DNA of 64,000 nucleotides from a virus, in the IMG/VR virus record IMGVR_UViG_3300017786_000003, positions 32,001 through 96,000 of that record; one strand, written 5' to 3'. Both the position numbers and the translations under genes were made by a program. Within the stretch, counting starts at the first letter, position 1; each line of letters begins with the position of its first letter. Shown piece after piece: positions 17,412 through 40,200 of the stretch. The notes beneath the pieces are model-generated. The model saw only the letters and a program-made list of their open reading frames with translations, was not told the DNA's origin and made no database searches.

Positions 17412-20400
17412 CTATTGATACATAGTACATGTTATTTCATAAGTTTGAGCTCCCTTAAATCCTACTACTGCACTTGTTCCATTAGTACCTATTACTTCAC
17501 CTTGGAAACCAGTTGTAGTATGATTTCTTGTTACAAATGAAAGAATAGAGGCATTACCCATACTTTTTACTATAGTACATTGAACTAAATAGTTTGCACT
17601 AGGTCTTGTTTGATTAAAAGTTATTGTAAACAATCCGGTTCCTGAATTATATGCTACTTGGTTATTTCCTGGATAAGTTGAATCACCTTGATTAACTATA
17701 CCACTAACACCAAATGAAAAATAATCACTTGGTCCTGGATCAGAAACAACTAAGTTTTTAACCTCAGTATACTTAACTTTATTGGCATCATCTACATCTT
17801 GGTATATTATTAAATCAGAACCATCAGGAATTGATCCAGATGCATTTTGTGCTGATTGGATAACAGAACTTGTACCTACATATTCTACAGCTATATCATC
17901 TGCATTAGCTTTTAAACCTGCCCCAGCTCCAACATTAAGTGTTAATGTTCCAGTAGTACCACTACCTGCTTCAGAACAACCTGTTCCTGCAGTAAGGCTT
18001 GTTACTAATGGTAATGCACTAATAGCAACTCTTTTAACAGTATTAGAATCGTCAGCATCATTAAATATTATCTCATCTGCTATGTCTGCTGAACCGGCTC
18101 CTGGTACTTTTACTAGGTTATCAGCTCCTACAAATTTAACACCTATAGTAGGGTTAACAGTACTAGATCCAGATTCTATTTCTAATGCTTCACCTGCTGT
18201 AATAGATGTAACTGTACCCGCTGGAGGTGCTGATCCTGCAGTAATTGAAGTAATATGTCCGGTTGAATTAACTGTTATGGATGCAGGATGAGCTGATGTA
18301 CCTGCTGAAATAGAGTCAGTGTGATTAACTGTAACAGTATTAGTTGTAAGTGGACCTGGACCAGTTGATGCCTCAGTAATTACTGTTGTTAAACCTGTTC
18401 CACCGGCAATATCAAAATTCTCATCAGTATTTACTACTTGAGCTGGATTTGTATCCGCTTGTAATGTAAATCCATTGTAGAACCCTGGCATTAAATAAAT
18501 CTGTTGTTTCTTAAGTGTATTACCATCAGAGGTATCACTAAACATGTAATAGTCAAGAGTAGCTGGATTTGACTCCGTAGCTCTTGCCATAATTAAGTTG
18601 TCTGATCCGGCTATATCAACACCAATTGTAATAGTATCTGTGGTTGAAGTGTTTACTGTTAGACCACCAAACGTTGAAGCTTGATTTGCAGCAGCAACTG
18701 TAAGAGTACCACCTAAATTAATAGTTTGCGGATTAGATCCATCACTTACAATAAAGTTACCAGCAGCAAAGAAGTTAGAAAGAGTATTCTTTTTTATAGT
18801 ATCACTATCACTTGCATCACTGAACCAAATAGAATCCGCATCTGTTGGAGTTTCAGTAGATGCAGCTAGTATAGCATTATCTGTACCAACATAGTCTATA
18901 TTGACAATTGGACTACTTGCTGTACCTGTAACAGTTATACCAGTTCCTGCATTAACAGTTGTACTACCACCGCCTCCACCAGCTGGGACTTGCCATGTAC
19001 CATCAGCTCTTAAGAATGTGGTTGATTGTGCTGAGCCTGATGAGTCAGGAACATATCCTACTACATTACCACCACCAAACTTATTTAAGCTAAGGTTAAG
19101 GGTGCTTCCAGAAATGCTTCCTGCAAAAGGAGTTGTATTTCCTGTAGTTAATGATAAGTTTAATGTTGTTAAGTTATTAAACGGTAAAGCAGATACTAAT
19201 GATTTCTTTACAGTATTACTATCATCTATATCAGAGAAAAGAATAAAGTCACCAGTAGCTGGTGTGCCTGCAGTTTGTACTTCTATAAAGTTATCTGTAC
19301 CGGCTATATCTAAAGCTATTTGTGCAACATTAGGTGTACCACCTGCTACACTAAAGTCTAAACCAGCTTGTCCCACAAAGTTTATAGTTTCTCCACCAGT
19401 TATTTGCTGTACTACACCACCATCTCCTTGAATACCAAAACTATCTGATCTAAGAATATCTTGAATAACTGCACGCTTTACTGTATTTCCAGCATTAACA
19501 TCATTAAATACTAAAGTATCTGTAGCAATATCTATTACTCCAGCACCTGCTGATAATATAAAGTTATCAGCACCAACATAATCTACAGCTACTGTAGCTG
19601 TTGGTCCTGTTCCATTTGTTACTGTAATACCATCTCCCTCATCTATTTGAGATATTGTACCACTTCCTGCATTAATCCATGCTGTTCCTGAACCAGTAGA
19701 ACTTAATATTTGTCCGTTAGTTCCAACAGCATTAGTTCCATCATAAAGTCCAGACCTTAGTCTTACATTACCATTAACATCTAATTTTTGTGTTGGTACA
19801 GTATTTATACCTACACCACCTTGTCTTAATATCATTGCAGTAGCAGCAACACCGTCAGTAGTTTGTATAAACTCTAGTTGAGATCCTCCTGCACCACTGC
19901 CATCCCAACCAACTTGTCTAATTTCATTTTTTATACCTGCTTGACCAACTGCATCAAAAAGCATAATTTGTGCAGTTATATCACTTACATCATTATTATT
20001 AGAATCAATTTTTATGATTGATGGTCTATCTCCAGGGTGTTTTATAGATAATGAAGTATTTGCTGTAGATTGACTTGGAACCCCTATAGCTAAACAATCA
20101 TCTGAGTTATGCCAAAATAAGTTTGCGTCACTAGATAATGTATCAGCAGCTGACCAGAATGCAACTCTTGTTGCTACACCGGTCCCTGTTACAAAACTAA
20201 GGCTTGATGCCAAGTCTCCAAGTTTAATACTTTTATTACTATCAGCTGATTCATCATATATCATTAACTTATCAGCTATAACTGCATTTGTTGAAAGGTC
20301 AGCTAAATTAAGTATGGTAGTACCAATCTCTATAGCACTACCTGTAGAAATTACATTTGATCCAAGTAAATTACCAGTAGAACTAGACCCTATAGATTTA

Positions 20401-21068
20401 TAACCTACACTTGTACCATCTGATATAATTAATTGACCAGCTGTTCCTGGTGGTAAAGGCTGTTGTATATTACTAGCGTTACCAACCCAGATGTTACCAA
20501 ATGGAAGAGTTACTACCGGGTCATCATCTGACCAAACAACTCTACCATCAGCTAAAGATCTTAATACTCTGTTAGCAGCACCTGCTGCATTACCAGCAGA
20601 ATCATGAACTTTGTTAAACAGTGTTGTAGCATTTGTTGTGTCTCCTGACGTACCTAATTCAACTCTTAATTTTAATACACTATTTTTATCAACCTCCAGA
20701 TTATCATCAACATTTAAATTTCCATTAACTATTATTGAATCAGCAACAGCATTTTGAATCATGATACTATCTTTGATAGCAGGATTTTGTACTAAACATG
20801 TTCCTACAGCTGTACTGCTATACATAGGTACTCTATGTTCTGTTGCAACACCGTCTTGTAAGACAACATTAGTTAGTATATCACATTTAATATCTCCGTA
20901 TTTAACTGCAAAAGGCTCCATTCTTGGAGCGTAAGTACCACCGTGGTTATTTAAAGTACTGGTTTGGTATAAACGTCCAATCTCTAAATAGTCTTTTTGA
21001 CTATCTAGTTTAAGCTGTTTTTTATTTCTCTTTAATAGGCCTAATACCTCTTGTATGAAAACACTCAT
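17412..21068 (-). CDS. Long tail fibre protein
   Basis: 1218 aa, G/T/S/D-rich, with fibre-type segments (GQILSSTGSGTAW, FLRADGTW), six internal repeats and an N-terminus shared with two other appendage genes. Confidence 0.8.
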   Translation of the reverse strand: MSVFIQEVLGLLKRNKKQLKLDSQKDYLEIGRLYQTSTLNNHGGTYAPRMEPFAVKYGDIKCDILTNVVLQDGVATEHRVPMYSSTAVGTCLVQNPAIKDSIMIQNAVADSIIVNGNLNVDDNLEVDKNSVLKLRVELGTSGDTTNATTLFNKVHDSAGNAAGAANRVLRSLADGRVVWSDDDPVVTLPFGNIWVGNASNIQQPLPPGTAGQLIISDGTSVGYKSIGSSSTGNLLGSNVISTGSAIEIGTTILNLADLSTNAVIADKLMIYDESADSNKSIKLGDLASSLSFVTGTGVATRVAFWSAADTLSSDANLFWHNSDDCLAIGVPSQSTANTSLSIKHPGDRPSIIKIDSNNNDVSDITAQIMLFDAVGQAGIKNEIRQVGWDGSGAGGSQLEFIQTTDGVAATAMILRQGGVGINTVPTQKLDVNGNVRLRSGLYDGTNAVGTNGQILSSTGSGTAWINAGSGTISQIDEGDGITVTNGTGPTATVAVDYVGADNFILSAGAGVIDIATDTLVFNDVNAGNTVKRAVIQDILRSDSFGIQGDGGVVQQITGGETINFVGQAGLDFSVAGGTPNVAQIALDIAGTDNFIEVQTAGTPATGDFILFSDIDDSNTVKKSLVSALPFNNLTTLNLSLTTGNTTPFAGSISGSTLNLSLNKFGGGNVVGYVPDSSGSAQSTTFLRADGTWQVPAGGGGGSTTVNAGTGITVTGTASSPIVNIDYVGTDNAILAASTETPTDADSIWFSDASDSDTIKKNTLSNFFAAGNFIVSDGSNPQTINLGGTLTVAAANQASTFGGLTVNTSTTDTITIGVDIAGSDNLIMARATESNPATLDYYMFSDTSDGNTLKKQQIYLMPGFYNGFTLQADTNPAQVVNTDENFDIAGGTGLTTVITEASTGPGPLTTNTVTVNHTDSISAGTSAHPASITVNSTGHITSITAGSAPPAGTVTSITAGEALEIESGSSTVNPTIGVKFVGADNLVKVPGAGSADIADEIIFNDADDSNTVKRVAISALPLVTSLTAGTGCSEAGSGTTGTLTLNVGAGAGLKANADDIAVEYVGTSSVIQSAQNASGSIPDGSDLIIYQDVDDANKVKYTEVKNLVVSDPGPSDYFSFGVSGIVNQGDSTYPGNNQVAYNSGTGLFTITFNQTRPSANYLVQCTIVKSMGNASILSFVTRNHTTTGFQGEVIGTNGTSAVVGFKGAQTYEITCTMYQ
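17760..19600 (-). repeat. Six degenerate protein-level repeats in the tail fibre
   Basis: DYVGADNF, DIAGTDNF, DYVGTDNA, DIAGSDNL, KFVGADNL and EYVGTSSV, each followed by D.I.F.D.DD.NTVK-like segments. Confidence 0.75.
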
Positions 21069-21079
21069 GATTTATTTTT

Positions 21080-21424
21080 TTATAAGTACAGTGCAGCTAA
21101 TTTAATGTTAGCTTGTGCTGAACAAGTTATTTTTATGTTACCATCAACATCATTAAAAGCATCAACTTCAAATGGTCCTAAGAAGCCAATTTCTCCTGCA
21201 GCTAAATTTAAAACTGCATTTTCTTTCTTTAATGTACCTAGTAAGGGATCTATAACTGTAGTAACTACCGGAACTACGGTAGCAGTAATAGCTCCACCAC
21301 TTGTATTCTGCACCCAGAAAAATTCTTTTGATGTATTCTTAAGTTTATCACCACCTGCAGCTGGAGTAACCGTGGTAGGTTCTAAACCAGCTTGTGTTAT
21401 TTGTTGTGCTGTTATTTGTGCCAT
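21080..21424 (-). CDS. Hypothetical small structural-type protein
   Basis: 114-aa T/A/G-rich beta protein in the late operon. Confidence 0.6.
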   Translation of the reverse strand: MAQITAQQITQAGLEPTTVTPAAGGDKLKNTSKEFFWVQNTSGGAITATVVPVVTTVIDPLLGTLKKENAVLNLAAGEIGFLGPFEVDAFNDVDGNIKITCSAQANIKLAALYL

Positions 21425-21434
21425 GATTTAATTT

Positions 21435-21656
21435 TTAACTATTTCTATATCCATTTTTAAAAGCTGCTGACTGAACTGGTTCTGATGCTCTTGTGGACTT
21501 CATATCACACACAATACCGGCTTTAGCCAATCTTTGTCTTTTAGCAACTTTTTTTGCATTTCTCTTTTGTTGGGACTTCTGATATTGAGAAGTAGGGTTA
21601 AAGTACCCATTAGGTACATTACCATCTCCCAGCGGGAATGATATCTTCTTTGCCAT
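21435..21656 (-). CDS. Hypothetical small basic protein
   Basis: 73-aa ORF in a tightly packed small-gene array. Confidence 0.6.
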   Translation of the reverse strand: MAKKISFPLGDGNVPNGYFNPTSQYQKSQQKRNAKKVAKRQRLAKAGIVCDMKSTRASEPVQSAAFKNGYRNS

Positions 21657-21661
21657 AATTT

Positions 21662-21745
21662 CTATTTATTAAGTAGATGTGATCCATCACAGATTCCATC
21701 AGGATTCTGAGTATTACCACATACACATTGAGTTCTATTTTTCAT
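21662..21745 (-). CDS. Minimal CDGSH iron-sulfur peptide (MKNRTQCVCGNTQNPDGICDGSHLLNK)
   Basis: Exactly fills the gap between 21747 and 21656. Carries C-x-C-x2-T...C-D-G-S-H. Below the ORF-track size cut-off. Confidence 0.75.
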   Translation of the reverse strand: MKNRTQCVCGNTQNPDGICDGSHLLNK

Positions 21746-21746
21746 A

Positions 21747-22022
21747 TTATTTTTTCATTTTACCTAAAGTTAATGCTAACCTTGCACGTTGTGCAGTCTT
21801 ACCACTACCTTTAGCTTTTTGTCTCAACCAAGACTTCTTAATAGTTCCATCAGCTTTCATTGCTCCTGCTCTTTTAGCAGTTGCTTTTAAGGCTCCTGGC
21901 TTTTTAATTGCCCCCTTGATCCAGTTCTTACCAGATTTTTTTGCACCACCTTTTTTATAAGACACTACACTCTTAGGCATAGTTCCTTTTTTCTTAGCTG
22001 GCTTAATTTTTTTTGCTGGCAT
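21747..22022 (-). CDS. Small Lys-rich protein with YKKGG motif (putative internal/DNA-condensing)
   Basis: 91 aa, highly basic, with NWIKGAIKKPGAL...RARLALTL. Confidence 0.65.
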   Translation of the reverse strand: MPAKKIKPAKKKGTMPKSVVSYKKGGAKKSGKNWIKGAIKKPGALKATAKRAGAMKADGTIKKSWLRQKAKGSGKTAQRARLALTLGKMKK

Positions 22023-22027
22023 AATTA

Positions 22028-22441
22028 CTATTTTTTACTTCTTCTTCCTTGAGCACTTGATCTGTTACCAGAATAAGCTCTTTTACCTGCAGCTCTTTTA
22101 GCTCCTTTACTTTCATTTCTTCTAGACTTCATAGATTGTTTTTTCTTACCTCTTCTCATTCCTAGAGATTCATCTAATCTAGAATTGTATCCTTGCTTTT
22201 TCTTCTTTTTAACTGCTCCTCCTTTTTTATAAACATCCATTACATCTCCTCCTTCTTGCATTCCCATGAGACCTCCCATATCTGCAAATTTTCTTTGTTT
22301 ATTCATTCTTTCTGGAGAGACAAATGGGTCTCCATCTCCGGTAGTCATACCCATTCTTGCGTACATTTTTTGACCACCCTTTTGTTTTTTCATAAGTTTA
22401 TCTAACTTTTTACTTGCTTTATAACCTGATTGTGCTGGCAT
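22028..22441 (-). CDS. Small basic protein with four xxxGG motifs
   Basis: KQKGG, ADMGG, MQEGG and YKKGG, followed by a K/R-rich tail. Confidence 0.65.
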   Translation of the reverse strand: MPAQSGYKASKKLDKLMKKQKGGQKMYARMGMTTGDGDPFVSPERMNKQRKFADMGGLMGMQEGGDVMDVYKKGGAVKKKKKQGYNSRLDESLGMRRGKKKQSMKSRRNESKGAKRAAGKRAYSGNRSSAQGRRSKK

Positions 22442-22453
22442 GATTTCTATTTT

Positions 22454-22921
22454 TTATTTGTTATTACTAATTGACTTAAATTTTTCTGCCCCTCTGCTTC
22501 CAAAGTAGGCTACATAAACGGTAATGAGAAGTGACTTGAGTAAATCTACCCAGCCAGCATCAATACCAAACTCTATGTCAAAACCATCTAACAAAATAAA
22601 TATAACTAATGAAACAGTTAAAAATATTAATGTTAAAGGTCTTGTGTTCTTACTTAGATATGAATCAGATTGCATATCCGCCTGCCATCTTTTGCTGACT
22701 TCTTGCATCTCAACCATATCCATCTCTAAAAGCTTTAATGCTTTTTCTTTATCTTCTGGTGGTAACACAGCAGGGTCTTCCTTCTCTATAAGAGATTTAA
22801 CCATGCCAAGTACACCTGCATCTGGAAGTAAGTCTCCAGCTACGCCTAACAGACTAGGAACTTTCTCAACAAGAAATTTTCCCACTCTGGTGTCTTTGAA
22901 TTTTTTCTTTCCTTTGCTCAT
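22454..22921 (-). CDS. Holin-like protein (3TM / GTA-type family)
   Basis: RWQADMQSDSYLSKNTRP, hydrophobic helices and YFGSRGAEK. Confidence 0.75.
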   Translation of the reverse strand: MSKGKKKFKDTRVGKFLVEKVPSLLGVAGDLLPDAGVLGMVKSLIEKEDPAVLPPEDKEKALKLLEMDMVEMQEVSKRWQADMQSDSYLSKNTRPLTLIFLTVSLVIFILLDGFDIEFGIDAGWVDLLKSLLITVYVAYFGSRGAEKFKSISNNK

Positions 22922-22923
22922 AA

Positions 22924-23331
22924 TTATTTTTTCTTACTTGCAGTTACTTTACTTTCACCTTTAGTTACTGTAACATCTGTGTCAGTAACATCTACCTGCA
23001 TTGGATCATCTTCTTTATCAGACAACTCTTTAATCAAGCTCTTAATTATTTCTAACTCAGGCTTCTCTTCTTTTTCTTTTGCTCCAACTATATGTTGTAA
23101 TATACCTATCAATGCCATTGCTGCTGTAGATACCAAACCAATAACTGCTGTTAGTGCTCCACCTTCTAAAGCTGTAGAACTTACTACACCTATTACTACT
23201 AATACTGTGATATAATTTATAGCATGTTTACCTAAATGTTTAGATGCTATTTCTTTAGCTGTACTTTGAGCTACAATTTTATCAATCTCAATCTTTGCTA
23301 ATACTTCTTCTTTTAATTTTTCTCTACTCAT
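22924..23331 (-). CDS. Membrane protein (2 TM) next to the holin
   Basis: YITVLVVIGVV and LTAVIGLVSTAAMALIGIL hydrophobic helices. Confidence 0.6.
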   Translation of the reverse strand: MSREKLKEEVLAKIEIDKIVAQSTAKEIASKHLGKHAINYITVLVVIGVVSSTALEGGALTAVIGLVSTAAMALIGILQHIVGAKEKEEKPELEIIKSLIKELSDKEDDPMQVDVTDTDVTVTKGESKVTASKKK

Positions 23332-23334
23332 AAC

Positions 23335-24177
23335 TTAAGGATATATTCTTATTTCTACTCCTGTTCTTATTAATTCACTGTCACCAAGACTACCATTTTC
23401 CTGGGTGCTTAACTGAAAGCTTGCAGTAGTAGCACCAAATATATTAATCACTACTGTTTGATTTTTTAAATTACCTTGTACAGGTGCAAAAAATACTTTA
23501 TCCATATCAGCTAGAGCTGTGTCCCAAGTACCTCTATACACTCCTGTAGTTATACGTGTCCAAGTAATATTATTACCTGTTGTATTTTCTAATACTGTTG
23601 CAGCTGGTGCACCGGTTCCAGATTGATTTAACAAAGCAGTGTAGCTTGTATACGGCCTTCCACCTGTGGAATTTATTGTTATTTCATTTGCACTTTGTGA
23701 CACAGTAACATTTGTACCTTGCACAATACTTCTAAAATTAAGGGTCTCCCCTACTTTATCTTTAAAAATTTGTGATCCACCACCTACATTTGCTGCAGTA
23801 TTTGGTTCACCACTTGTTGTTATCTCTACATAATCATCATCTGATGAATTAGCAAGAGTAAGGTTGCTGCTCAGAGACTTTAGTGATCTAAAATAAACAG
23901 TACATGTTTCTTCAACATCATCAGATTCTGTCTTCTGATATACTTGACCTGTGCCAGCAGCTGGATTAGCTGGAGAATTTGCGTGTGCACAATGTTCTGC
24001 AGCAACCTTAAAATCTCTCACCTTTATCACCTTTACACTTTTGTATGGTATAGGAGATGCTACACCTGTCATATCAGGCTTTTCATTCACCCCTAAAATC
24101 AATACATCGTCTAACTCAGCCTTCTTAGCAAAAACAGATCTTCTTATTAAACTTAATACATCAGTTAAAATGTTCAT
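23335..24177 (-). CDS. Short tail/head appendage protein
   Basis: N-terminus (MNILTDVLSLIRR) is similar to the two fibres. Contains fibre-like LNFRSIVQGTNVTV and a beta-rich C-terminus. Confidence 0.6.
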   Translation of the reverse strand: MNILTDVLSLIRRSVFAKKAELDDVLILGVNEKPDMTGVASPIPYKSVKVIKVRDFKVAAEHCAHANSPANPAAGTGQVYQKTESDDVEETCTVYFRSLKSLSSNLTLANSSDDDYVEITTSGEPNTAANVGGGSQIFKDKVGETLNFRSIVQGTNVTVSQSANEITINSTGGRPYTSYTALLNQSGTGAPAATVLENTTGNNITWTRITTGVYRGTWDTALADMDKVFFAPVQGNLKNQTVVINIFGATTASFQLSTQENGSLGDSELIRTGVEIRIYP

Positions 24178-24479
24178 TTTTTCTTCTTCTTATTCTTTTT
24201 CTTATAAGAAGATGTCCATCCCCCTATCTTGTATGGTTGTTTTGATTCAGTACCATCTGCTCTTTTTGCATTCCTTAAAGCATTGCCTCCCTTTTGCATC
24301 TTATTTATTAAAGAGTTAAGAGATACATCTGCTAGGTCTAGTTCACCACCAAGCATTTTACCAGATACGTCCATTGATCCTTCTTTAAGCATATCATCTA
24401 TTGCGGCTGCTTGAGCCCCATGCATTTTAGATGCTTTCTTTAATGCACCAGATATTTCTTTTAACTTCTTCTTTGCCAT
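24174..24479 (-). CDS. Small basic protein with xxxGG motifs
   Basis: KMLGG, MQKGG and YKIGG, plus a poly-Lys tail. Confidence 0.65.
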   Translation of the reverse strand: MAKKKLKEISGALKKASKMHGAQAAAIDDMLKEGSMDVSGKMLGGELDLADVSLNSLINKMQKGGNALRNAKRADGTESKQPYKIGGWTSSYKKKNKKKKK

Positions 24480-24484
24480 GTCTT

Positions 24485-24586
24485 TTACTTTTTACAATCC
24501 TTTTTTTTACATACCCCTTCTTTACACCAGCCTAAGCAAACGTATCCAAAGGTTATCCATTTTATAAATACACAAATATTTCTCAT
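24485..24586 (-). CDS. 33-aa Cys-rich micro-protein (MRNICVFIKWITFGYVCLGWCKEGVCKKKDCKK)
   Basis: ATGA overlap with the upstream stop and fills the gap before 24479. Not in the ORF track. Confidence 0.55.
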   Translation of the reverse strand: MRNICVFIKWITFGYVCLGWCKEGVCKKKDCKK

Positions 24587-24717
24587 TTTCCTTGTCCTCT
24601 ATAGAGTTTTTTATAATTTTTACTTGACATCACACTTGAGTGTTTTGTCTTTGCATGAATCCCAGGTCTTTTTCTTCTTCTAGGTTTCTCATAAGTTGAA
24701 GGGAGAATCCGTGCCAT
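24583..24717 (-). CDS. 44-aa basic micro-protein (MARILPSTYEKPRRRKRPGIHAKTKHSSVMSSKNYKKLYRGQGK)
   Basis: TAATG-coupled to the upstream gene and ATGA-coupled to the downstream gene. Not in the ORF track. Confidence 0.65.
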   Translation of the reverse strand: MARILPSTYEKPRRRKRPGIHAKTKHSSVMSSKNYKKLYRGQGK

Positions 24718-24965
24718 TACTTCTTAGGCTTTCTTCCTTTACGCTTCTTTCCTGTTATTGCACCTGGTACGTCTCCAAGCTGATTACCTACTTCTTTTAT
24801 TGCTCTAGCAACATCCGCTAGTTCAGCTTTAGTTAGTTGGTAATGTTCTAAACTTTTTTTCATAGCTGCAACAACTTTTTCATCTACTTCTGTCTTAGAC
24901 CATAATTTTACCCAGTAATCTTGTGGGCTATAAGTCCATAATACATTTATAATTTTCTTAAACAT
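24717..24965 (-). CDS. Hypothetical protein
   Basis: 82-aa first gene of the small-gene operon, downstream of a TTTGTATATTA box. Confidence 0.65.
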   Translation of the reverse strand: MFKKIINVLWTYSPQDYWVKLWSKTEVDEKVVAAMKKSLEHYQLTKAELADVARAIKEVGNQLGDVPGAITGKKRKGRKPKK

Positions 24966-24992
24966 AATAAATTGTTTTACTCTTTATATAAA

Positions 24993-25077
24993 TAATATAC
25001 AAATTTTGTCTCACTTTAGCAACAGAATCCGTTATATATGTGCTATCTTTGTTAGCCTTGTATCTATAATATACAAA
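24993..25077. promoter_or_regulatory. Divergent promoter region
   Basis: Two minus-strand TTTGTATATTA copies (24993-25003, 25067-25077) and a plus-strand TATCTTTG (25044-25051) lie between divergent genes. Confidence 0.55.
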
Positions 25078-25384: not shown

Positions 25385-26362
25385 ATGAAAGACATCTTTA
25401 AACCTAGACTCAATATTCTACCCTATGAATACCCACAATTATTAGCATATAAAGATGCCATTAGACATTCCTATTGGATTGATACAGAATTTAATTTTAC
25501 TGAAGATATACAGGACTTTAAAGTGACTATTAATCCTAGAGAAAGAGATGTTATAAAAAAGACTATGTTAGCTATTGCACAAATAGAAGTTAATGTTAAA
25601 ACTTTCTGGGCTGACATATATAAACGTATGCCTATTACAGAGATAGGAGATGTAGGAATGACATTTGCTGAGTCAGAAGTAAGACATAAAGATGCTTATG
25701 CTAGACTGTTGAGAATCTTAGGTTTAGAAGAAGAATTTAAAAATGTTGTTGAGGTACCAGCAATAAAAGGAAGGCTTAAATATTTAAAAAAATATTTAGA
25801 TGGTACAAGATCTAAAGACAACAAAATGTATACTAAATCTGTTTTACTATTCTCTTTATTTATAGAGCATGTTAGTTTGTTTAGCCAGTTCTTAATTATG
25901 ATGAGCTTTAATAAAGAAAAGAATGTACTAAAGGGTATATCTAATGTTGTAGAAGCAACAAGCAAAGAAGAAGAAATACACGGTAACTTTGGAGCAGAGT
26001 TAATTAATATTATTAAAGAAGAAAACCCGGAATGGTTTGACAAAGACTTTGAAGATCTAATACACTCAGCATGCAATAAAGCATATAAAGCAGAGTGTTG
26101 TATATTGGACTGGATATTTGAAAAAGGAGAACTAGACTTCTTACCAAAAGAAACTATAAAGAATTTTATCAAGAATAGATTCAATAATTCACTTGAAAAA
26201 ATTGGGATGCCAACTTTATTTATTGTAGATTTGGATCTGTTAGAGTCTACAGAATGGTTTGACATTGAGGTTACTGCAACAAAAGAAGGAGACTTCTTCT
26301 ACAAGAAAAGTGTTGACTATAATAAAAAGAGTAAAAGCATAACTGAAGATGACTTATTTTAA
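25385..26362 (+). CDS. nrdB: Ribonucleotide reductase class I beta subunit (class Id-like)
   Basis: Ferritin-like ligands E68, E98/H101, E161 and E196/H199, plus Y105 and K72. C-terminal DFFYKKSVDY. Confidence 0.93.
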   Translation: MKDIFKPRLNILPYEYPQLLAYKDAIRHSYWIDTEFNFTEDIQDFKVTINPRERDVIKKTMLAIAQIEVNVKTFWADIYKRMPITEIGDVGMTFAESEVRHKDAYARLLRILGLEEEFKNVVEVPAIKGRLKYLKKYLDGTRSKDNKMYTKSVLLFSLFIEHVSLFSQFLIMMSFNKEKNVLKGISNVVEATSKEEEIHGNFGAELINIIKEENPEWFDKDFEDLIHSACNKAYKAECCILDWIFEKGELDFLPKETIKNFIKNRFNNSLEKIGMPTLFIVDLDLLESTEWFDIEVTATKEGDFFYKKSVDYNKKSKSITEDDLF

Positions 26363-26364
26363 TT

Positions 26365-27990
26365 ATGGAATATAAAAAATACTACTGGCTAAATGAAAAT
26401 AGTAGAACCTTTTTATCTAGAGGTTATATAACAGAATCACCAGAACAAAGAATAAAAGACATAGCTAATAAAGCAGAGAAATATCTTCATATGCCTGGCT
26501 TTGCTGAAAAGTTTGAGAACTATATGTCTAAAGGATTTTACTCACTATCTACTCCTGTATGGATAAACTTTGGTAAACCAAAAGGTTTGCCTATTAGTTG
26601 TTACGGATCCAATATAGATGATAACTTAAATAGTATACTTAATGCAGGACGTGAGATTGGAATGATGTCAAAATATGGTGGAGGTACAAGTTGCTTTTTA
26701 GGGAATATAAGACCTAGAGGATCAAAGATATCTACAGGAGGCTTAGCTGATGGACCAGTACACTATGCTAGAATATATGATACAGTTGTAGATGTATGTA
26801 AACAATCTGAAGCAAGGCGTGGAGCCTGTGCAGCATATCTACCATTAGAGCATCCAGACATAGATGAGTTCTTAGATATAGGTACTGAGGGAAATCCAAT
26901 ACAAAACTTACAGTATGGTATTACAGTTTCTGATGCTTGGTTGAGATCTATGAAAGCAGGTAGTAAAGATAAACGTAAGATATGGGCTAAAGTAATTCAA
27001 AGAAGATCTGAGTTTGGATATCCTTATATAATGTTCAAAGACAATTCTAATAAGAACACTCCATACAATGAGATAGGAATGGAAATCACAGCATCAAACT
27101 TATGTTCAGAAATCCAACTACCAACAGACACCTATAACTCCTTTGTGTGTTGTTTGGGTTCTATTAACTTACTACACTGGGATGAGATAATAAAGACTGA
27201 TGCAATAGAAACGTATGTATTCTTTTTGAATGCTGTTATGGATGAGTTCATTAAGAAAGCGGAAGTAAAAGCTGGCCTTAAAAGAGCATATAACTTTGCT
27301 AGCAAACATAGAGCTATTGGTTTAGGTGTGTTAGGTTATCACAGTTTGTTTCAGTCAAAGCTAATAGAGTTTGAATCATTAGCTGCTAAACAACTAAACA
27401 ATCATATATTTAAACATTTAAAAGAAGTATCAGATGAAGCATCAAGATGGTTATATGAACACAGGGGATATAGATCCCTACGAGAAGGCTATGCAAACAC
27501 AACTCTTATGGCTATTGCTCCTACTAAATCAAGTTCATTTATCCACGGTGCTGTATCTATGGGTATTGAGCCAATAAAATCTAACTACTTTATCAAAGAT
27601 CTTGCTAAGTCTAAGACGGTGTATAAGAACCCATTCTTAGTAGAAGAGTTAGAAAAGTATGGTCTTAATAATAAAAAGACATGGGATAGTATATTAAAGA
27701 AAGATGGATCTGTACAGCACTTAAACTTCCCAACAAAAGAAGTATTTAAATCATTCATTGAAATAAGTCCTAAAGAACTAGTACTACAAGCAGCACAAAG
27801 ACAAAAGTATATTGATCAGTCACAGTCATTAAACTTAATGATTGACCCGTCTGTATCAGCTAAAGATATTAATAAGCTTTATTTATATGCACATGAAGAA
27901 GGAGTAAAAACACTATACTATCAGTTTAGTATAAGTTCTGCTCAAGACTTTGCTAGAAACATATTAGAGTGTGCAAGCTGTGAAGGATAA
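26365..27990 (+). CDS. nrdA: Ribonucleotide reductase class I alpha subunit, no ATP cone
   Basis: PISC, GGGT, RRGA, SNLCSEI, AIAPTKSSS, DQSQS, KTLYY and C-terminal CASC. Confidence 0.95.
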   Translation: MEYKKYYWLNENSRTFLSRGYITESPEQRIKDIANKAEKYLHMPGFAEKFENYMSKGFYSLSTPVWINFGKPKGLPISCYGSNIDDNLNSILNAGREIGMMSKYGGGTSCFLGNIRPRGSKISTGGLADGPVHYARIYDTVVDVCKQSEARRGACAAYLPLEHPDIDEFLDIGTEGNPIQNLQYGITVSDAWLRSMKAGSKDKRKIWAKVIQRRSEFGYPYIMFKDNSNKNTPYNEIGMEITASNLCSEIQLPTDTYNSFVCCLGSINLLHWDEIIKTDAIETYVFFLNAVMDEFIKKAEVKAGLKRAYNFASKHRAIGLGVLGYHSLFQSKLIEFESLAAKQLNNHIFKHLKEVSDEASRWLYEHRGYRSLREGYANTTLMAIAPTKSSSFIHGAVSMGIEPIKSNYFIKDLAKSKTVYKNPFLVEELEKYGLNNKKTWDSILKKDGSVQHLNFPTKEVFKSFIEISPKELVLQAAQRQKYIDQSQSLNLMIDPSVSAKDINKLYLYAHEEGVKTLYYQFSISSAQDFARNILECASCEG

Positions 27991-31530: not shown

Positions 31531-34500
31531 TTATTTAATAAAGAAGTCACTATTTTTAAGATAGCTATCCCATTTTTGGAATGTATACCAAATAGGAACA
31601 ACATCTTTCCAATTTTTAGCAAGTTTCAGTTCTCCTTTTCTAGGCTTATTTTGATATACATACTCAGAGTTCTCTCTAAATTCTTTATCACTATAATATA
31701 CATAAGCTATTGGAGTTCTAAAAGATAAAGATAAAGCCTCACCCAGTTCTCCTAATGTTCTTGTAGCTGCTATAGGTGACTTAAACATTTGATACTGTTG
31801 TTTTAATCCAGAAGGATGCGGTGTAAATAATACTAATTCTTTATATGTTCTATCTGCTTGATATTTAGCAATATTTTTAAATCTTTTTGTTAGTTCTGAG
31901 TCATCATCATCACCAGCTAACATTACTTGCATTAACTCACTAAGTAAAAATACTGATATCATAATTCCTATTTCACCTGCAGTTCTGTAGAAACCATATA
32001 GTTTGTTCTCTGCTCTCTGATCAATATTACCTCCTTCTCCAGTCCAATCATGATCTTTTAAAAATCCTTCTTTATAAGTATTAAACTGTAGATTACCTGT
32101 TGCTGCTGTTTTTAAAGCATAGTTTATAAACTTCAAAGCGGATATATATCTACCTTCCATCCATCCAAGGTTTTCATCAAAGTATTCTCTTTGATATCTT
32201 GCTCTAAATGCTGGCATAACCCATTTATGAAACTGTGCTGCTAAGTTACCAAGCGTTGTACTTTGAATAACCATTCTATCTTCTTTAGCATAGTTACCAT
32301 GAATTTGTTTATTAACCTCTCTTATTTTATTTCTTAAGTCATATCTATACTCATCAGTATAAGCCACTTCTCTACCACCTTTTTCAACTACAGTATCAAA
32401 TCCTTCTTTAAGTTCATTCTTATGTGTTTTAGGATTATAGGTAAATGCATCATATAAAGAGAGTGTCTCACCTGTTGTACTATTTTTAATTGTAGTATCC
32501 ATCAACATGGCCATACCTACTTTAGTTTGTACATTGTATTCTGCTGCATCCTGAAGAACATATCCCCACTCAGCTGCTTTAGCAAACCAACTTTGGCCTG
32601 TAGTAGTATCTGCTCCCTGTTCACGTATGTCTGTCATTTTATCCATCATCCTAAACATATCTACAAAAGCTTCATATTTACTATTAGCTTTCTCAGGATC
32701 ATAATCAACTTTACCAACACCTTTAGCTGCACCAAAAGTAGCAACATAACCTAAATCTTTCATATAATAACTAGTTCTAGAAACAATATCAGGAATAGCT
32801 CTTTGATTAAAAACTTTTACAGCTCTTAGATATGATGATCTATTAAAGAATCTTTGACCAAGCATTTCTATATTATTGTTCACTCTACCAATAACATAGT
32901 TGTTAAAGTTACCAAACGGGTTAAAGGCAACATAAGTAAGAGAAGAAACTTGAATTAGCTTATCTGCTATTTTATCAAACATTCCTTTGGATATTTTGTG
33001 GTTATCATAAAAGGTCATAGACATCCACTTCTTAGCTCGTCTAACAGCATTTGCTTCTAACTTGTTACTACTTATTTTTTGTCCAACCTTTTTAACAGCA
33101 CCTTCTACCACACTGAAAGATTCTATATCTGTTTCAGGTGAACCATATTCTCTTTGTTCTAGTACCTTTACCATAGAATTTAATGTGTCTTCTACAGTAC
33201 TCATTGTCTCATAGTTTTGAGCCATTGCAATAAACTTTAAAAGACTATCAGTAAGATCTTTACTAATCTGACCTACAGTTGGAGTAGCTCTTAACCTTGC
33301 TATCTTACCATTAAGTTTTTTTAATTCTATATCATACTCACGTGCTCTAATTTTATTTTTCTTTCTTTTACTTTTTAATTCTGTTCTTTCTGCTTCAAGC
33401 TTTTCTAGTTCTCCTTCAACTCTTGCATTACCAGTAAAGTAAATTGGTAAAGTGCTTACCACATTACCAAGCTCATCAGTAGTAACACCCTTTTGCTGAG
33501 ATGTACCTTGAGTAAACATAGAAACATTTTCAACTGTTTCTGCCCACTTTCTAGCTATAAAGTTCTTTTTGCCTTTTACTTCAGCTAACATTTTTTGTTG
33601 AACTACAGGAAGTCTACCAAGCATATTAGTTATATGTCCAGGAGGAAGCTTTTCCAATTGCTGTTTATAAACTGCAGTCCACATCTCATAATATTCTTTT
33701 TGTGCTTGTCCTAGTGCATCTGTAGGATTCATAATCTTAAGATACTCCGGACTTAAAACACTTTCACCATCTATTAGTGCATCATCTTTTATCTCTCTAT
33801 ACTCTGTTTTTGGAAAAGCATTGCTACCCTCATTAAATACTGTAGCACCAGTAGGTTGACCCTTAAAATATACTGGTCTAAGCTTTTCTTCATTAGGCAT
33901 AAAGTACTTAGCTTTATATTGGATGTACTCTGCTTCAGAAACAGTGGCTCTTTTTTTCCACTTTATAAATCCTATCTCAGTATTTACAATTGCATATTCA
34001 TGAATATCTCTAGCATCTTTAAACTCTTGAGTATATCTGTGGATATCACCATCTATTATATTCCCAGCATCATCAACTTGTTCAGCCTTAAAAAAGTTAC
34101 CTAAAGCTGCTTTGTCTTCTGCAAGTTGTTTATTATGTTCTAATTCCTCTGGCTTAGCCTTAAATGTATTAGGTATGTCATAATATAAACGTGGTTTACC
34201 ATCACTATCAAAAGTCTTTTGTCTTAACTCATGTTGTTTATTTTTATAGTTTGGTCCTATCTTTTCTACATATGTACCATCATCCTTAGCCATAAAATTA
34301 TATATCTTCTGAGGATCAGTTTCTGCAGATAACTTAATTAATTTATCAGCAGCTTGAAGTACCATATCTTTTTGAACAGATATTTTATCAAGCATCTTTT
34401 GCATAGCTGCTTTATATATCTTGTCCATTATAGCTAATATTACATCAGGAGATGTTGCCATATCTCTAGTTTGATAGTCCATATCAGTAATGTCAGGAGC

Positions 34501-37262: not shown

Positions 37263-40200
37263 TTAATTTAATCCTAAACATTTTAAATGTTCTTTGAACT
37301 CTTCTTCTGTAAGGTTCACATTAATCTTTCTCATTTCTTCATATTGTTCTATCATAGAGTCTAATGGGAAAAGTTTCTCTTGTTGCAAGATAGGAATATT
37401 ATTTTTGTTTTCTAATAACCTATCATACTCATTTGCTATATCAGGATACTGTTCTTCAACTTCTTCTTCAAACTGAAACTCCATTTGTTCATAAACTATA
37501 TTATCTAAATTACCAGGATCAGATGGAATATACTCTTCTTCCATAGCTTTAAGGACAAGAGCCTCACGTTCATCATTATCCATAACTTCTTGATTATCAA
37601 ATAATTGTTGTTGTATTTCTTGTGTATCAGCAATATTAACAGGTGTAGATTCAGGTCCAGCAGCTTGAACTGTTACAGACCTTTCTGTAGCTTCAACAAT
37701 ACTGCTTTCAGTTTTTATTGCTTCTTCAACTGGATCAAAAGCTATATCTGTTGTTTGAACAGGTGCATCTATTTGATTTTCTTCAGAATAATTCTGAGCA
37801 TTTTTTCTATCTATAAAATTATTATTTTCTGATAGTGTTGGTCTATCTCCAAATATAAATCCAATAGGAGTTTGTTGCTTAGATCCCATAGGTTGAACTC
37901 TTTTATATACAACCTCCTTTTTAGATGCAAGATCACGTGTAAATAAAAAGTAATCTATATTTCCAAATTCATTTATATTACCTAATCTTACAAAAGCAAA
38001 ACTTTTTTCCTGATTTTCTTCTGTATTAAATACTAAATTTCCATCTTTAAATGAGTATCCTTCTGGCAGGCTTCTTCTTTCCTGTGCTGGACCACCTTGA
38101 TATATTGTTTTAACATATTCTTGAGAAGAAGTAGATAACAAATAATTGTCTAATAATGTTTTTTCTAAGTCAGCCTGTGATAAACCAAAAACAGACTCAA
38201 ATGTAGCTTTTCCATTTAAAGCCTTTTGCACATTGTTTACTTGATTCAAATAAGTATTTAAGGTATACGGACTAATTGCTTCTAATAAACTTGCATAACC
38301 TAATTCTAAACCATCCTTAACCATTATGTAATTAATAATAGCTTCAGCAGACTTGCGTGTTTCAATTGTATTATATAACTGAGCAAAGCTGGTTTGTAGA
38401 TCTATTTTTTGTGAAGATGAAAGATTTCTAAATGTATTAGCTTGTGCTAAATTCATTCCTGTTTTATTATTTGAGTTATCTGCAGACAGTAAAAGCACAA
38501 AGTTTTGTAAAAAGAAATTATCTGCTAGACTTTCTCTTTTTTGTAAATCTTGTACAACTGAAATAATAGACTGAACTGATTGTCCATCTATTACTGGTTG
38601 AGGATAAACAAAACTATTAGATAATGTTGCGGCTAGTTGACCATCTGTTTGTAAAGCATTATGTAAATAAGCTTGCAGTGTCAAATAAGATACAATATTC
38701 AATGAGATATCATTTTGTATTTTAGTTATCTCTGGAGTTACTGGTATATCCATCCCATCTAAGAGTTTGGTGTACATACCTACAAAAGGCTTTGTAGAAG
38801 ATATAAAGACTTCAGGAAGTAAAACATCTGTTAGCTGATTAACTATATTTACATATGTACCCCTCCATGTATCATTATATAAATCACTTACGGAAATTAA
38901 TCCCTGGGTTTTAAGTTCTTGAATTGTTCTTTTTAAGTTATTTAGTTCTACTATGCTACTAGGTAATCCTTTAGTAAGGCTTGTTATCGCACCCATTTTA
39001 CTAGTAACTTCAACCAAACCAGAAATCTTAATTAGTTCTTCTAAAGCAGACTTTGTAACATCTTGACTATCCACTAGGTTACCATCAATAAAATCATACA
39101 TCAACTCTTTAGTTAACTTAGTAGATTTTATAGATTTATATTCGTCTGACCTTAATATCTTTTCTGCATAAGTTGTAAGCTTTATTCCTGAATCTACTCT
39201 TGCATTAAAAGCATCTTGAATTACTGGAAGATTAATAAATAAAGTAGCTACTTCTAAAGGTACTCCTAATGCAATCATGTTAGCCATTACACTCATTGCT
39301 GGTTTACTTAAACCAAGTTTAGATATATAACGGTCTTTAGCATTATCTACTGCAATAGATATTAAAGCAGAAAGTGTATCCTGCTTTCTTTGGAGACCAC
39401 CTACTTCAGTTGACTCAGCAAAACTATCATACTTAATACCATCTAATTCAAAGGCTCCATTTACAAGCTTGTTACTTTTGAGCCAGAAGTCCCAATCTAG
39501 TTTCTTTTTACTTTCAGTTAATAAACTCAAATATAAATTAGGTAATACCACTGCACCAATAGATGCACCTTTATTAGATTTAAATGCTTTTGTCTTTCCT
39601 AGTAAATTATCTACATCAACATTATCTTCTTGTAATCTATCACTAAATACCTGAGATTTTCCTGCTAACACATCTAATGTAGTTTTTACAATATTGTCAT
39701 TTGCTGGAGAATAAGCTATAGGTATTCCTGTGCTTGATTCTGTCATACCTCTGTTACCTACTAAAGCATATCTATAATCTAATACTTCATTATTATAAGG
39801 AGCTTCATATGGAAAACCATGATCTTCTTTATATTTTGCGTACTGTGCTTTAGTTACAGGTAAACCTAACATCATTAATGCTTTTCTACTTTCTTCACTA
39901 ACAGGACCATCCGGAATAGTTACTAAATCTACTTCAGCATCACTAAGTTGGTGTTCTGGTTTTACAGCATTATCTTTATATTGCTCTAAAGATTCAGAAT
40001 AAATAGTTCCTGGCTTAGTAACTTTTTCATTTACATAATTAATATATGCATTATACTCTTCAGTTAAAGAAGCCTCTTTACCATATTCTACAAATTGACC
40101 ATCTTTAATATAGTACTCTTTCATCAATGCAAATACTTTATCTATGTCAAAATCAGCACCAGAAGTTTCTATTAGTTCTTGAGCAAACATTGCTGAAGAC

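What the first reader, a model, noticed from the sequence alone, without database searches (positions are those of the whole stretch)
21662..21745. Unannotated 27-aa CDGSH [2Fe-2S] micro-protein in the late operon
Seen: the minus-strand ORF MKNRTQCVCGNTQNPDGICDGSHLLNK starts 1 nt after the previous stop and ends 5 nt before the next start. Established: C-x-C-x2-(S/T)-x3-P-x-C-D-G-(S/A/T)-H binds a labile 3Cys-1His [2Fe-2S] cluster in NEET proteins. Here all four ligands are present with one extra residue in the loop, and the peptide is nothing but the motif. Inference: a stand-alone Fe-S or metal carrier/sensor expressed late among small basic and lysis genes, perhaps packaging iron or sensing redox state.
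Basis: partly seen in the sequence, partly recalled or inferred. Interest (0 to 1): 0.75.

Follow-up and report, generated by a model that had tools for sequence, protein, structure and literature searches.

The report
Motif-only CDGSH micro-gene in marine phage
A real, conserved 27-codon phage gene encodes little more than the metal-binding loop of CDGSH (mitoNEET-type) iron-sulfur proteins. It belongs to a large, unnamed family shared by marine flavobacteria and their phages. If it holds an iron-sulfur cluster it would be among the smallest such proteins known, but its metal and its role are untested.

Summary
The ORF at 21662-21745 (-) is exactly as described. It is a real gene. It sits in the same slot in 17 of 45 related IMG/VR loci, as 11 distinct sequences. 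All four ligands and five further residues are invariant there, with synonymous codon changes, and pooled pN/pS is 0.34.

It fails Pfam zf-CDGSH (13.6 vs 29.5 bits). A family profile nevertheless aligns to flavobacterial CDGSH domains at 96% hhalign probability with one inserted residue. The same one-residue-longer loop also occurs as the second module of a few tandem CDGSH proteins that pass Pfam.

The family is large and unnamed.
- In bacteria the gene follows a YceI lipocalin gene in 54 of 93 contexts, or is fused to it.
- In phages it lies within 3 kb of the same holin family in 45 of 73 contexts.

It lacks the beta-sandwich of every described CDGSH protein. Which metal it binds ([2Fe-2S] or zinc/iron) and what it does are untested. 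"Iron packaging" has no support.

This scan reported the same family before on other genomes. New here are the tandem-CDGSH intermediates, rare redox-domain fusions and RNA-library contigs that span the gene.

The parts
21662..21745 (-). 27-codon micro-gene (stop included): motif-only, one-residue-longer CDGSH loop
   Evidence: Kept in the same slot in 17 of 45 related loci as 11 distinct sequences. Pooled pN/pS 0.34, with synonymous changes in invariant codons.
21677..21727 (-). Codons Cys7..His23: C-x-C-G-x-T-x4-G-x-C-D-G-S-H, the putative 3Cys-1His metal site
   Evidence: Aligns to flavobacterial CISD loops with a single 1-residue gap.
21747..22022 (-). Upstream 91-aa very basic protein (phrog_20603, function unknown). 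Its stop is 1 nt before the micro-gene ATG.
21435..21656 (-). Downstream 73-aa protein. Its ATG is 5 nt after the micro-gene stop. It is the constant right-hand neighbour of the slot in relatives.
22028..22441 (-). 137-aa basic Gly-rich protein between the holin and the 91-aa gene
   Evidence: cluster 'basic82'.
22454..22921 (-). Holin-family protein (phrog_3427): long N-terminal soluble part, hydrophobic helix near residues 96-114
   Evidence: (E 1.2e-17). The same family lies within 3 kb of the micro-gene in 45 of 73 context-unbiased viral loci.
21080..21424 (-). 114-aa tail protein (phrog_16194), used as the synteny anchor

Best explanation
The ORF is a real protein-coding micro-gene of a roughly 108-kb marine phage.

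What it encodes: a free-standing, motif-only derivative of the CDGSH iron-sulfur loop. It keeps three Cys, one His, and the Gly, Thr/Ser and Asp-Gly-Ser residues that frame the cluster in CISD proteins. It has one extra loop residue and none of the beta-sandwich.

Where it comes from: the gene is shared with marine Flavobacteriia and was probably taken from them. There the same micro-protein is encoded directly behind, or fused through one membrane helix to, a YceI-type lipocalin gene, often with MarR and FMN-reductase genes nearby.

Most likely mechanism (inferred): the four ligands hold a redox-active metal centre, most plausibly a [2Fe-2S] cluster shared in a pair of knuckles as in all CISDs. 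The peptide would act at the cytoplasmic face of the inner membrane as a small electron carrier or redox/pH-labile sensor. In phages the stand-alone form sits mainly in lysis cassettes. It would then either tie the host's membrane redox or energy state to holin-dependent lysis, or keep the host's YceI-linked membrane redox chemistry running until lysis.

My odds:
- Real gene: 0.95.
- Descended from CISD loops: 0.85.
- Binds a metal through these four residues: 0.8.
- That metal centre is [2Fe-2S]: about 0.5.
- Role tied to lysis or membrane redox: about 0.3.
For: Real gene:
- It occupies the same slot (between a variable basic protein and the 73-80-aa gene) in 17 of 45 loci found through the neighbouring tail protein, and is cleanly absent from the rest.
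- These loci were picked with only CDG[SAT]H required. Across 11 distinct sequences, C7, C9, G10, T12, G17 and C19-D-G-S-H23 never change. T12, G17, G21 and S22 each use 3 codons, and C7 and H23 use 2.
- Pooled pN/pS is 0.34, and length changes are whole codons.
- Contigs from RNA libraries of two studies span the gene together with its neighbours: 21340-22761 and 21396-22682.

Relation to CISD:
- The best PDB profile hit is the type 4 CISD 3TBM, though at E 0.43, which is not significant on its own.
- hhalign against Flavobacteriaceae CISD domains gives Prob 96%, E 4.9e-9 (a single pairwise comparison), 25 columns and one 1-residue gap.
- The same longer loop is the second module of tandem CISDs that pass Pfam: P0114 at 51 bits, P0064 at 53 bits and P0115 at 46.5 bits.
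- It occurs in 4 of 120 relatives of P0114; 112 have canonical 8/8 spacing and 4 show only one module.
- A model of one such protein matches type 6 CISD 3TBN (Foldseek E 4e-6, target TM 0.77) and human CISD3 6AVJ.

Redox and membrane flavour:
- A YceI gene (PF04264) lies directly upstream in 54 of 93 bacterial contexts. MarR is present in 17 and FMN_red in 14.
- A knuckle-membrane helix-YceI fusion forms a cluster of 130 members.
- Rare fusions exist to rubredoxin, FMN_red and a 2OG-Fe(II) oxygenase.
- Tandem double knuckles occur in Opitutaceae.
- From the literature: mitoNEET passes electrons from FMNH2 to ubiquinone or oxygen (PMC9490426). A YceI-family lipocalin works with a membrane cytochrome b561 against lipid peroxyl radicals (PMC9113575).

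Link to lysis: in viral loci found by the motif alone, 45 of 73 non-redundant contexts hold the window's holin family within 3 kb, 35 hold an M15 peptidase and 34 hold a 136-aa membrane protein. The typical order is membrane protein, micro-gene, small membrane protein, M15, holin.
Against: - No measurement of any metal or any function exists.
- The peptide scores below Pfam's threshold.
- It lacks the beta-sandwich dimerization module and lid proline that all seven CISD types share. The smallest described CISD has 53 residues (PMC3174974).
- The loop Pro is not conserved in this phage clade (P/S/A).
- A 3Cys-1His site in a tiny terminal knuckle is also typical of zinc sites.
- The knuckle is fused to non-redox partners too: ribosomal protein S16, an XkdF-type head protease, and proteins with a weak N-terminal match to phrog_8608.
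- In this window the gene is separated from the holin by two basic-protein genes and abuts tail genes. No endolysin was recognised nearby, and the whole record has no M15_3 peptidase.
- The holin association is inflated by relatedness among the phages counted.
- The rubredoxin and FMN_red fusions are singletons, and the FMN_red one is truncated.
- RNA-library contigs cannot exclude carried-over DNA and give no strand.
Confidence: 0.5

Rival explanations
1. It is a zinc (or mononuclear iron) knuckle. The CDGSH-like loop has become a tiny structural metal-binding module that mediates protein-protein or protein-nucleic acid contacts, like the SEC-C/SecA metal-binding tail or retroviral-type knuckles, and has no Fe-S chemistry.
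For: It has only 27 residues and no hydrophobic core. 3Cys-1His is a common zinc site (established knowledge). The module sits at the very ends of unrelated proteins, as zinc knuckles do: ribosomal protein S16, XkdF-type protease, a 109-aa phage protein, and proteins with a weak match to phrog_8608. Some 38-45-aa forms end in short docking-like tails. AlphaFold2 without metal gives no stable fold for the tandem form, pLDDT 52.
Against: Asp, Gly, Ser and the Thr/Ser of the CISD second shell are strictly kept, which a plain zinc site does not need. The same longer loop replaces a canonical module inside Pfam-passing tandem CISDs. Partners and fusions lean to redox or iron proteins. There is no match to SEC-C or any zinc-finger family at E<=10.
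Confidence: 0.3
2. It is a host-derived auxiliary gene unrelated to lysis. The phage copy simply boosts the host's YceI-linked membrane redox or anti-peroxidation pathway, or donates clusters or electrons to other enzymes during infection. Its place near holins reflects the accessory-gene hot spot that lysis cassettes often are.
For: The gene is present or absent in a fixed slot, like a moron. Its nearest bacterial counterpart matches 17 of 22 positions around the loop in a Flavobacteriaceae MAG. The bacterial context is YceI/MarR/FMN_red. In this window it is two genes away from the holin, among basic and tail genes.
Against: Two or more different gene orders keep the micro-gene within 3 kb of the same holin family. 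No phage locus examined carries a YceI gene beside it.
Confidence: 0.25
3. It is a virion-associated iron carrier. The peptide would be packaged with the small basic proteins or tail parts and deliver or hold iron in the particle.
For: It lies between small basic proteins and tail genes here. The knuckle forms the C-terminal end of XkdF-type head proteases in five viral loci.
Against: There is no virion data. Most stand-alone phage copies sit in lysis cassettes, not structural modules. The bacterial members have no virion to enter.
Confidence: 0.05
4. It is not a gene: a chance ORF, or a region conserved for a reason other than its protein.
For: It is very short, below gene callers' usual minimum, and has no Pfam or PHROG assignment.
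Against: pN/pS is 0.34 with synonymous variation at invariant residues. The same peptide family occurs in hundreds of unrelated genomic contexts and as a fused domain.
Confidence: 0.02

Closest known systems
Prokaryotic single-motif CDGSH iron-sulfur domains, types 4 and 7 (e.g. RsCISD, PDB 3TBM; Pfam PF09360)
   Same: Same order of three Cys and one His. Same C-x-C-G-x-(S/T)-x-N start and C-D-G-S-H end. It is the best PDB profile hit, and hhalign gives 96% against Flavobacteriaceae members. Canonical CISDs are common in the likely host family, in 55 of 81 genomes.
   Different: One extra residue between the second and third Cys. The Pro-hydrophobic pair is replaced by x-(D/N/E)-G-x. There is no five-stranded beta-sandwich, no N-strand and no lid proline. 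The length is 27 aa against about 60-150. It scores below the Pfam cut-off (PMC3174974).
Tandem CDGSH proteins, types 5 and 6 (MmCISD 3TBN; human CISD3/MiNT 6AVJ)
   Same: A minority of these (4 of 120 relatives of P0114, plus P0064 and P0115) carry exactly this longer loop as one of their two modules. One models onto 3TBN and 6AVJ. Opitutaceae double-knuckle micro-proteins echo the two-module design.
   Different: Those proteins keep the beta-strands that pair the two modules. The phage peptide and the double knuckles have only short linkers.
Canonical-spacing CDGSH tails without a beta-sandwich (C-terminus of DUF1801+OmdA proteins; repeated C-T-C-G-K-T-K-T-P-P-Y-C-D-G-S-H units)
   Same: They show that a bare CDGSH loop can exist as an appended mini-module, here just passing Pfam at 30.5 bits.
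   Different: They have canonical spacing, and they are attached to larger proteins or repeated rather than free-standing single loops.
SEC-C / SecA C-terminal metal-binding domain (Pfam PF02810)
   Same: A roughly 20-residue Cys/His knuckle that starts C-x-C-G, sits at protein termini or in tiny proteins, and binds zinc or iron (my knowledge of the family).
   Different: Its pattern is C-x-C-x8-C-(C/H), not C-x-C-x9-C-x3-H. There is no sequence match at E<=10.
Phage T4 antiholins RI/RIII (lysis inhibition)
   Same: Small phage proteins encoded to modulate holin timing in response to a signal. This is only a functional analogy for the boldest reading.
   Different: There is no sequence or structural relation, and no evidence here of binding to the holin.

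Membership tests
CDGSH iron-sulfur domain (CISD/NEET; PF09360) | Three Cys and one His in the order C-x-C ... C-D-G-(S/A/T)-H | tested here: met
   Cys7, Cys9, Cys19 and His23 are present and invariant in 11 syntenic variants.
CDGSH iron-sulfur domain (CISD/NEET; PF09360) | Canonical 17-residue motif spacing: hydrophobic-C-x-C-x2-(S/T)-x3-P-hydrophobic-C-D-G-(S/T/A)-H (PMC3174974) | tested here: not met
   There are nine rather than eight residues between Cys2 and Cys3. The Pro is displaced and varies (P/S/A). The residue before the first Cys is polar.
CDGSH iron-sulfur domain (CISD/NEET; PF09360) | Score at or above Pfam's gathering threshold | tested here: not met
   13.6 bits against 29.5, covering only profile positions 32-47 of 48.
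CDGSH iron-sulfur domain (CISD/NEET; PF09360) | Detectable homology of the loop to bona fide CISDs | tested here: met
   hhalign Prob 96%, E 4.9e-9 for a single pairwise comparison. The same longer loop occurs inside Pfam-passing tandem CISDs.
CDGSH iron-sulfur domain (CISD/NEET; PF09360) | Beta-sandwich dimerization module with N-strand and lid-proline motif | tested here: not met
   Only 6 residues precede the first Cys and 4 follow the His. PMC3174974 describes this module in all seven types.
CDGSH iron-sulfur domain (CISD/NEET; PF09360) | Binds a redox-active, pH-labile [2Fe-2S] cluster | not testable with these tools
   Needs reconstitution with UV-vis, EPR and metal analysis.
Unnamed motif-only '+1' CDGSH micro-protein family (this scan; no published name found) | 22-45 aa; C-x-C-G-x-T-x4-G-x-C-D-G-S-H with only a few flanking, mostly polar or basic residues | tested here: met
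   A 27-aa near-relative is P0080.
SEC-C / SecA metal-binding domain (PF02810) | C-x-C-x8-C-(C/H) and a match to the family profile | tested here: not met
   The spacing differs. Pfam at E<=10 returns only zf-CDGSH.

The most novel reading that the evidence does not exclude
The 27-residue peptide, as a dimer, holds CDGSH-type [2Fe-2S] clusters without any supporting fold, which would make it among the smallest natural iron-sulfur proteins known. The phage would use its redox- and pH-labile cluster as an antiholin-like timer that reads the host's membrane redox or energy state and gates holin triggering.
Probability: 0.12. Interest if true: 0.85.

Novelty: new variant of a known kind. Interest (0 to 1): 0.6.

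Why it matters
- If the peptide binds [2Fe-2S], it defines the minimal natural CDGSH unit. It would be a tractable model of about 25 residues for a cluster type linked to diabetes, cancer and ferroptosis research.
- The family is abundant in marine Flavobacteriia and their phages. Most members fall below the length at which gene callers usually report genes, and no paper in the searched library describes them.
- Its tie to YceI lipocalins points to an unstudied piece of bacterial membrane redox or lipid-peroxidation defence.
- Its place in phage lysis cassettes offers a testable idea for how lysis timing could sense host redox or iron state in iron-poor seas.

Tried and rejected
- **Phage reference set:** megablast of 19000-25000 and tblastn of the peptide against the INPHARED phages found no match.
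- **Length limits:** I worked through neighbouring genes and a degenerate DNA pattern instead.
- **PHROGs:** no family for the peptide.
- **Pfam on the ten surrounding proteins:** nothing.
- **Complex prediction:** two copies of the peptide with two 2Fe-2S clusters scored 0.20 against a mark of 0.42. The verdict was 'no answer'. This is neither support nor evidence against.
- **AlphaFold2 of the Opitutaceae double-knuckle protein:** pLDDT 52, unusable and not searched.
- **Zinc chaperone for an M15 endolysin:** rejected for this phage, because the whole record has no Peptidase_M15_3 although the micro-gene is present.
- **SEC-C membership:** rejected on spacing and lack of a profile match.
- **P0008 (1308 aa, nine 'stretches'):** a false positive, an animal-type repeat protein without the motif.
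- **RNA contig gaps and ends:** gaps in RNA-contig cover and the similar contig ends in two studies are not interpreted.
- **Literature:** searches for CDGSH with phage, virus, YceI or small proteins found no description of this family.

Full report
**Observation.** The window is bases 32001-96000 of a 107,860-bp IMG/VR virus record estimated 94% complete. It has about 32% G+C. Replication genes lie on the plus strand. Tail, holin and giant structural genes lie on the minus strand.

Its ATG lies 1 nt after the stop of a 91-aa basic protein gene. Its stop lies 5 nt before the ATG of a 73-aa gene. The ligand stretch (21677-21727) reads C-x-C-G-x-T-x2-P-x-G-x-C-D-G-S-H. That is nine residues between the second and third Cys, where canonical CDGSH motifs have eight.

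The motif occurs once in the record and is not expected by chance. Pfam zf-CDGSH matches only its last 16 profile positions, at 13.6 bits against a 29.5-bit cut-off. PHROGs has nothing. The exact peptide is absent from a collection of about 15 billion predicted proteins.

**Is it a gene?** The peptide is too short for the homology tools, so I fetched IMG/VR loci through its neighbours.
- Of the 47 loci anchored on the 114-aa tail protein, 45 cover the slot and 17 carry a 26-28-codon ORF there. It lies directly upstream of the 73-80-aa gene.
- In the others the flanking genes abut cleanly.
- With three further loci found through the 91-aa gene, this gives 11 distinct peptide sequences including the window's.
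- These were picked with only CDG[SAT]H required. Even so, C7, C9, G10, T12, G17, C19, D20, G21, S22 and H23 never change, while the positions between them do.
- Invariant residues use up to three synonymous codons. Third codon positions vary in 17 of 21 columns, against 9 for second positions. Pooled pN/pS is 0.34.
- The loop Pro is not invariant (P/S/A).

Contigs assembled from RNA libraries of two independent marine studies span the micro-gene together with the 73-, 91- and 137-aa genes (21340-22761 and 21396-22682). This fits a polycistronic message. It cannot exclude carried-over DNA and gives no strand.

**A large family.** A degenerate DNA pattern for C-x-C-G-x-T-x4-G-x-C-D-G-S-H hit at least 119 stretches in IMG/VR and at least 120 in GTDB species genomes. 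Residues fixed by the pattern are invariant in these sets by construction.

The viral hits are mostly 22-45-aa stand-alone ORFs. The module also forms:
- the N-terminus of a 109-aa phage protein (a cluster of 102 members);
- the C-terminus of XkdF-type head proteases;
- part of proteins whose N-terminus weakly matches phrog_8608 (annotated prohead protease inhibitor);
- 38-45-aa forms with short C-terminal tails.

The bacterial hits fall into several groups:
- 25-33-aa ORFs in marine Flavobacteriaceae, Polaribacter and Cryomorphaceae;
- 25-aa ORFs in Paenibacillus;
- 54-63-aa double knuckles in Opitutaceae and other Verrucomicrobiota;
- a fusion to ribosomal protein S16;
- 220-aa proteins made of knuckle, one hydrophobic helix and a YceI domain.

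A profile search of 1.84 billion cluster representatives gave 279 clusters at E<=1e-3. Of the best 150, 134 carry only the longer loop and 79 of those are 50 aa or shorter. ESM Atlas look-alike clusters of 184, 128 and 109 members are all labelled 'hypothetical protein'. Four literature searches found no description.

**Relation to CDGSH proteins.**
- A profile of 51 micro-proteins has the type 4 CISD 3TBM as its best PDB hit, with a single one-residue gap. At E 0.43 that is not significant alone.
- Canonical CISDs pass Pfam in 55 of 81 Flavobacteriaceae genomes sampled. A profile of 21 CISD domains, 20 of them from those genomes, aligns to the micro-protein profile with hhalign probability 96% and E 4.9e-9 over 25 columns, again with one gap.
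- Tandem CISDs that pass Pfam (P0064 at 53 bits, P0114 at 51 bits, P0115 at 46.5 bits) carry this same longer loop as one of their two modules.
- Among 120 relatives of P0114, 112 have 8/8 spacing, 4 have 8/9 with a C-S-C-G-H-T...G-x-C-D-G-S-H second module, and 4 show only one module.
- An AlphaFold2 model of one of the 8/9 proteins has pLDDT in the 70s-80s through the core, with similar values over both loops. It matches type 6 CISD 3TBN (E 4e-6, target TM 0.77, 1.9 Å over 81 columns) and human CISD3.
- The longer loop is therefore a natural CISD module variant.
- Bare loops with canonical spacing also exist, as C-terminal tails of DUF1801+OmdA proteins (30.5 bits) and as short repeats.

What the phage peptide lacks is everything else. 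Lin et al. (PMC3174974) describe a beta-sandwich dimerization module with an N-strand and a lid proline in all seven CISD types. The smallest type has 53 residues.

**Context and likely mechanism.** I clustered the ORFs within 3 kb of each stand-alone micro-gene and named cluster representatives with Pfam and PHROGs.
- *Bacteria, 93 non-redundant contexts:* 54 have a YceI-domain gene immediately upstream on the same strand. Seventeen have MarR, 16 a rhodanese, and 14 an NADPH-dependent FMN reductase just downstream.
- *YceI fusion:* the knuckle-helix-YceI fusion (a cluster of 130 members) would place the knuckle on the cytoplasmic side of the membrane, if the YceI domain is periplasmic as in other bacteria. 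This topology is my inference.
- *Rare fusions:* rubredoxin, FMN reductase and a 2OG-Fe(II) oxygenase. The first two are singletons, and the FMN reductase one is truncated.
- *Literature:* mitoNEET's cluster is reduced by FMNH2 made by flavin reductase and re-oxidised by ubiquinone or oxygen (PMC9490426). A YceI-family lipocalin works with a membrane cytochrome b561 against lipid peroxyl radicals (PMC9113575). mitoNEET gates the VDAC channel in a redox-dependent way (PMC6778226).
- *Viral loci found by the motif alone, 73 non-redundant contexts:* 45 hold the same holin family as the window's 22454-22921 (phrog_3427). Thirty-five hold an M15 peptidase and 34 a 136-aa membrane protein. The usual order is membrane protein, micro-gene, small membrane protein, M15, holin. 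The window's clade has another order: holin, basic proteins, micro-gene, 73-aa gene, tail protein.

My best reading is a host-derived, free-standing CDGSH-type metal knuckle. It is probably paired, as the Opitutaceae double knuckles suggest, and probably redox-active. It would act at the inner face of the membrane, and phages would use it in or beside their lysis programme. The steps from 'conserved loop' to '[2Fe-2S]', and from 'near the holin' to 'times lysis', are inferences.

**Rivals.**
- *Zinc or mononuclear-iron knuckle (0.3).* This fits the size, the terminal placement on unrelated proteins (S16, head protease) and the lack of a core. It explains less well the strict retention of the CISD second-shell residues, the tandem-CISD intermediates and the redox partners.
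- *Pure auxiliary role unrelated to lysis (0.25).* This fits the presence/absence pattern and the distance from the holin in this window.
- *Virion iron carrier (0.05).* The only support is the head-protease fusions and the neighbouring basic and tail genes.
- *Not a gene (0.02).* This is contradicted by the comparative data.
- *Zinc chaperone for M15 endolysins.* Rejected here, because this record has the micro-gene but no M15_3 peptidase.

**Earlier notes of this scan.** Several earlier notes reported the same micro-protein family on other genomes, with the same flavobacterial YceI and phage lysis-cassette contexts. I found the viral family before reading them. I then tested the bacterial and context claims myself, and they hold. 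New here are the profile-profile statistic, the longer loop inside Pfam-passing tandem CISDs with a fold match, the redox-domain fusions, the selection analysis of this phage clade and the RNA-library contigs.

**Verdict.** This is a new variant of a known kind: a motif-only, one-residue-longer CDGSH module. It is widespread and undescribed in the literature searched, and its metal and function are untested. Interest 0.6.

Noticed in passing
L205:3130-3417:+: A 96-aa viral protein carries two different Cys3-His knuckles. An N-terminal C-G-C-G-R-S-P-T-G-K-C-I-G-W-H is two residues shorter than the CDGSH-type loop at its C-terminus. This links two micro-knuckle families that earlier notes of this scan treated separately.
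   Followed up: no
L305:957-1511:+ and L337:7221-7820:+: Ribosomal protein S16 (PF00886) of Coraliomargaritaceae MAGs has a long acidic, Ala-rich extension that contains one CDGSH-type knuckle. Separately, the fold search returned a CISD-like protein chain of the Tetrahymena mitoribosome (6z1p_AV).
   Followed up: partly
P0002 (94 aa): This protein has an N-terminus that looks like an organelle transit peptide, followed by three consecutive knuckles joined by very short linkers. It may be an algal member of the family.
   Followed up: no
L151:3845-3958:-, L141:506-634:+, L166:430-555:+, L234:6568-6699:-: Viral forms of 38-45 aa add conserved C-terminal tails to the knuckle: L-F-D-M-N-N-L-P-F-P-Y-L, or an acidic N-E-D-V-P-F-A-D-K-F reminiscent of SSB tails. 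These may be docking motifs.
   Followed up: no
window 21747-22022, 22028-22441, 24174-24479 (-): Three very basic, Gly-rich small proteins surround the micro-gene. The 91-aa one has 188 relatives in IMG/VR and matches only PHROGs of unknown function. The protein between the holin and the micro-gene slot differs widely among related phages.
   Followed up: partly
window 37263-50960 and 31531-37251 (-): Giant ORFs of 4565 and 1906 aa, followed by four ORFs of about 1000 aa, fill the minus strand. They were not analysed here.
   Followed up: no
window 25385-27990 (+): Genes for the small and large subunits of ribonucleotide reductase lie on the plus strand, wedged between two minus-strand structural and lysis blocks.
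   Followed up: partly
window 21340-22761: RNA-library contigs from two studies begin and end at similar places (21340/21396 and 22761/22682). They cover the 73-, 27-, 91- and 137-aa genes and the holin's 3' part. This might mark an abundant transcript segment, but contigs cannot show ends.
   Followed up: no
L411:452-1093:+, L412:1529-2173:-, L413:1501-2142:-: Flavobacteriaceae DUF1801+OmdA (YdeI-like) proteins end in a canonical-spacing CDGSH loop with no beta-sandwich. They just pass Pfam's threshold.
   Followed up: partly
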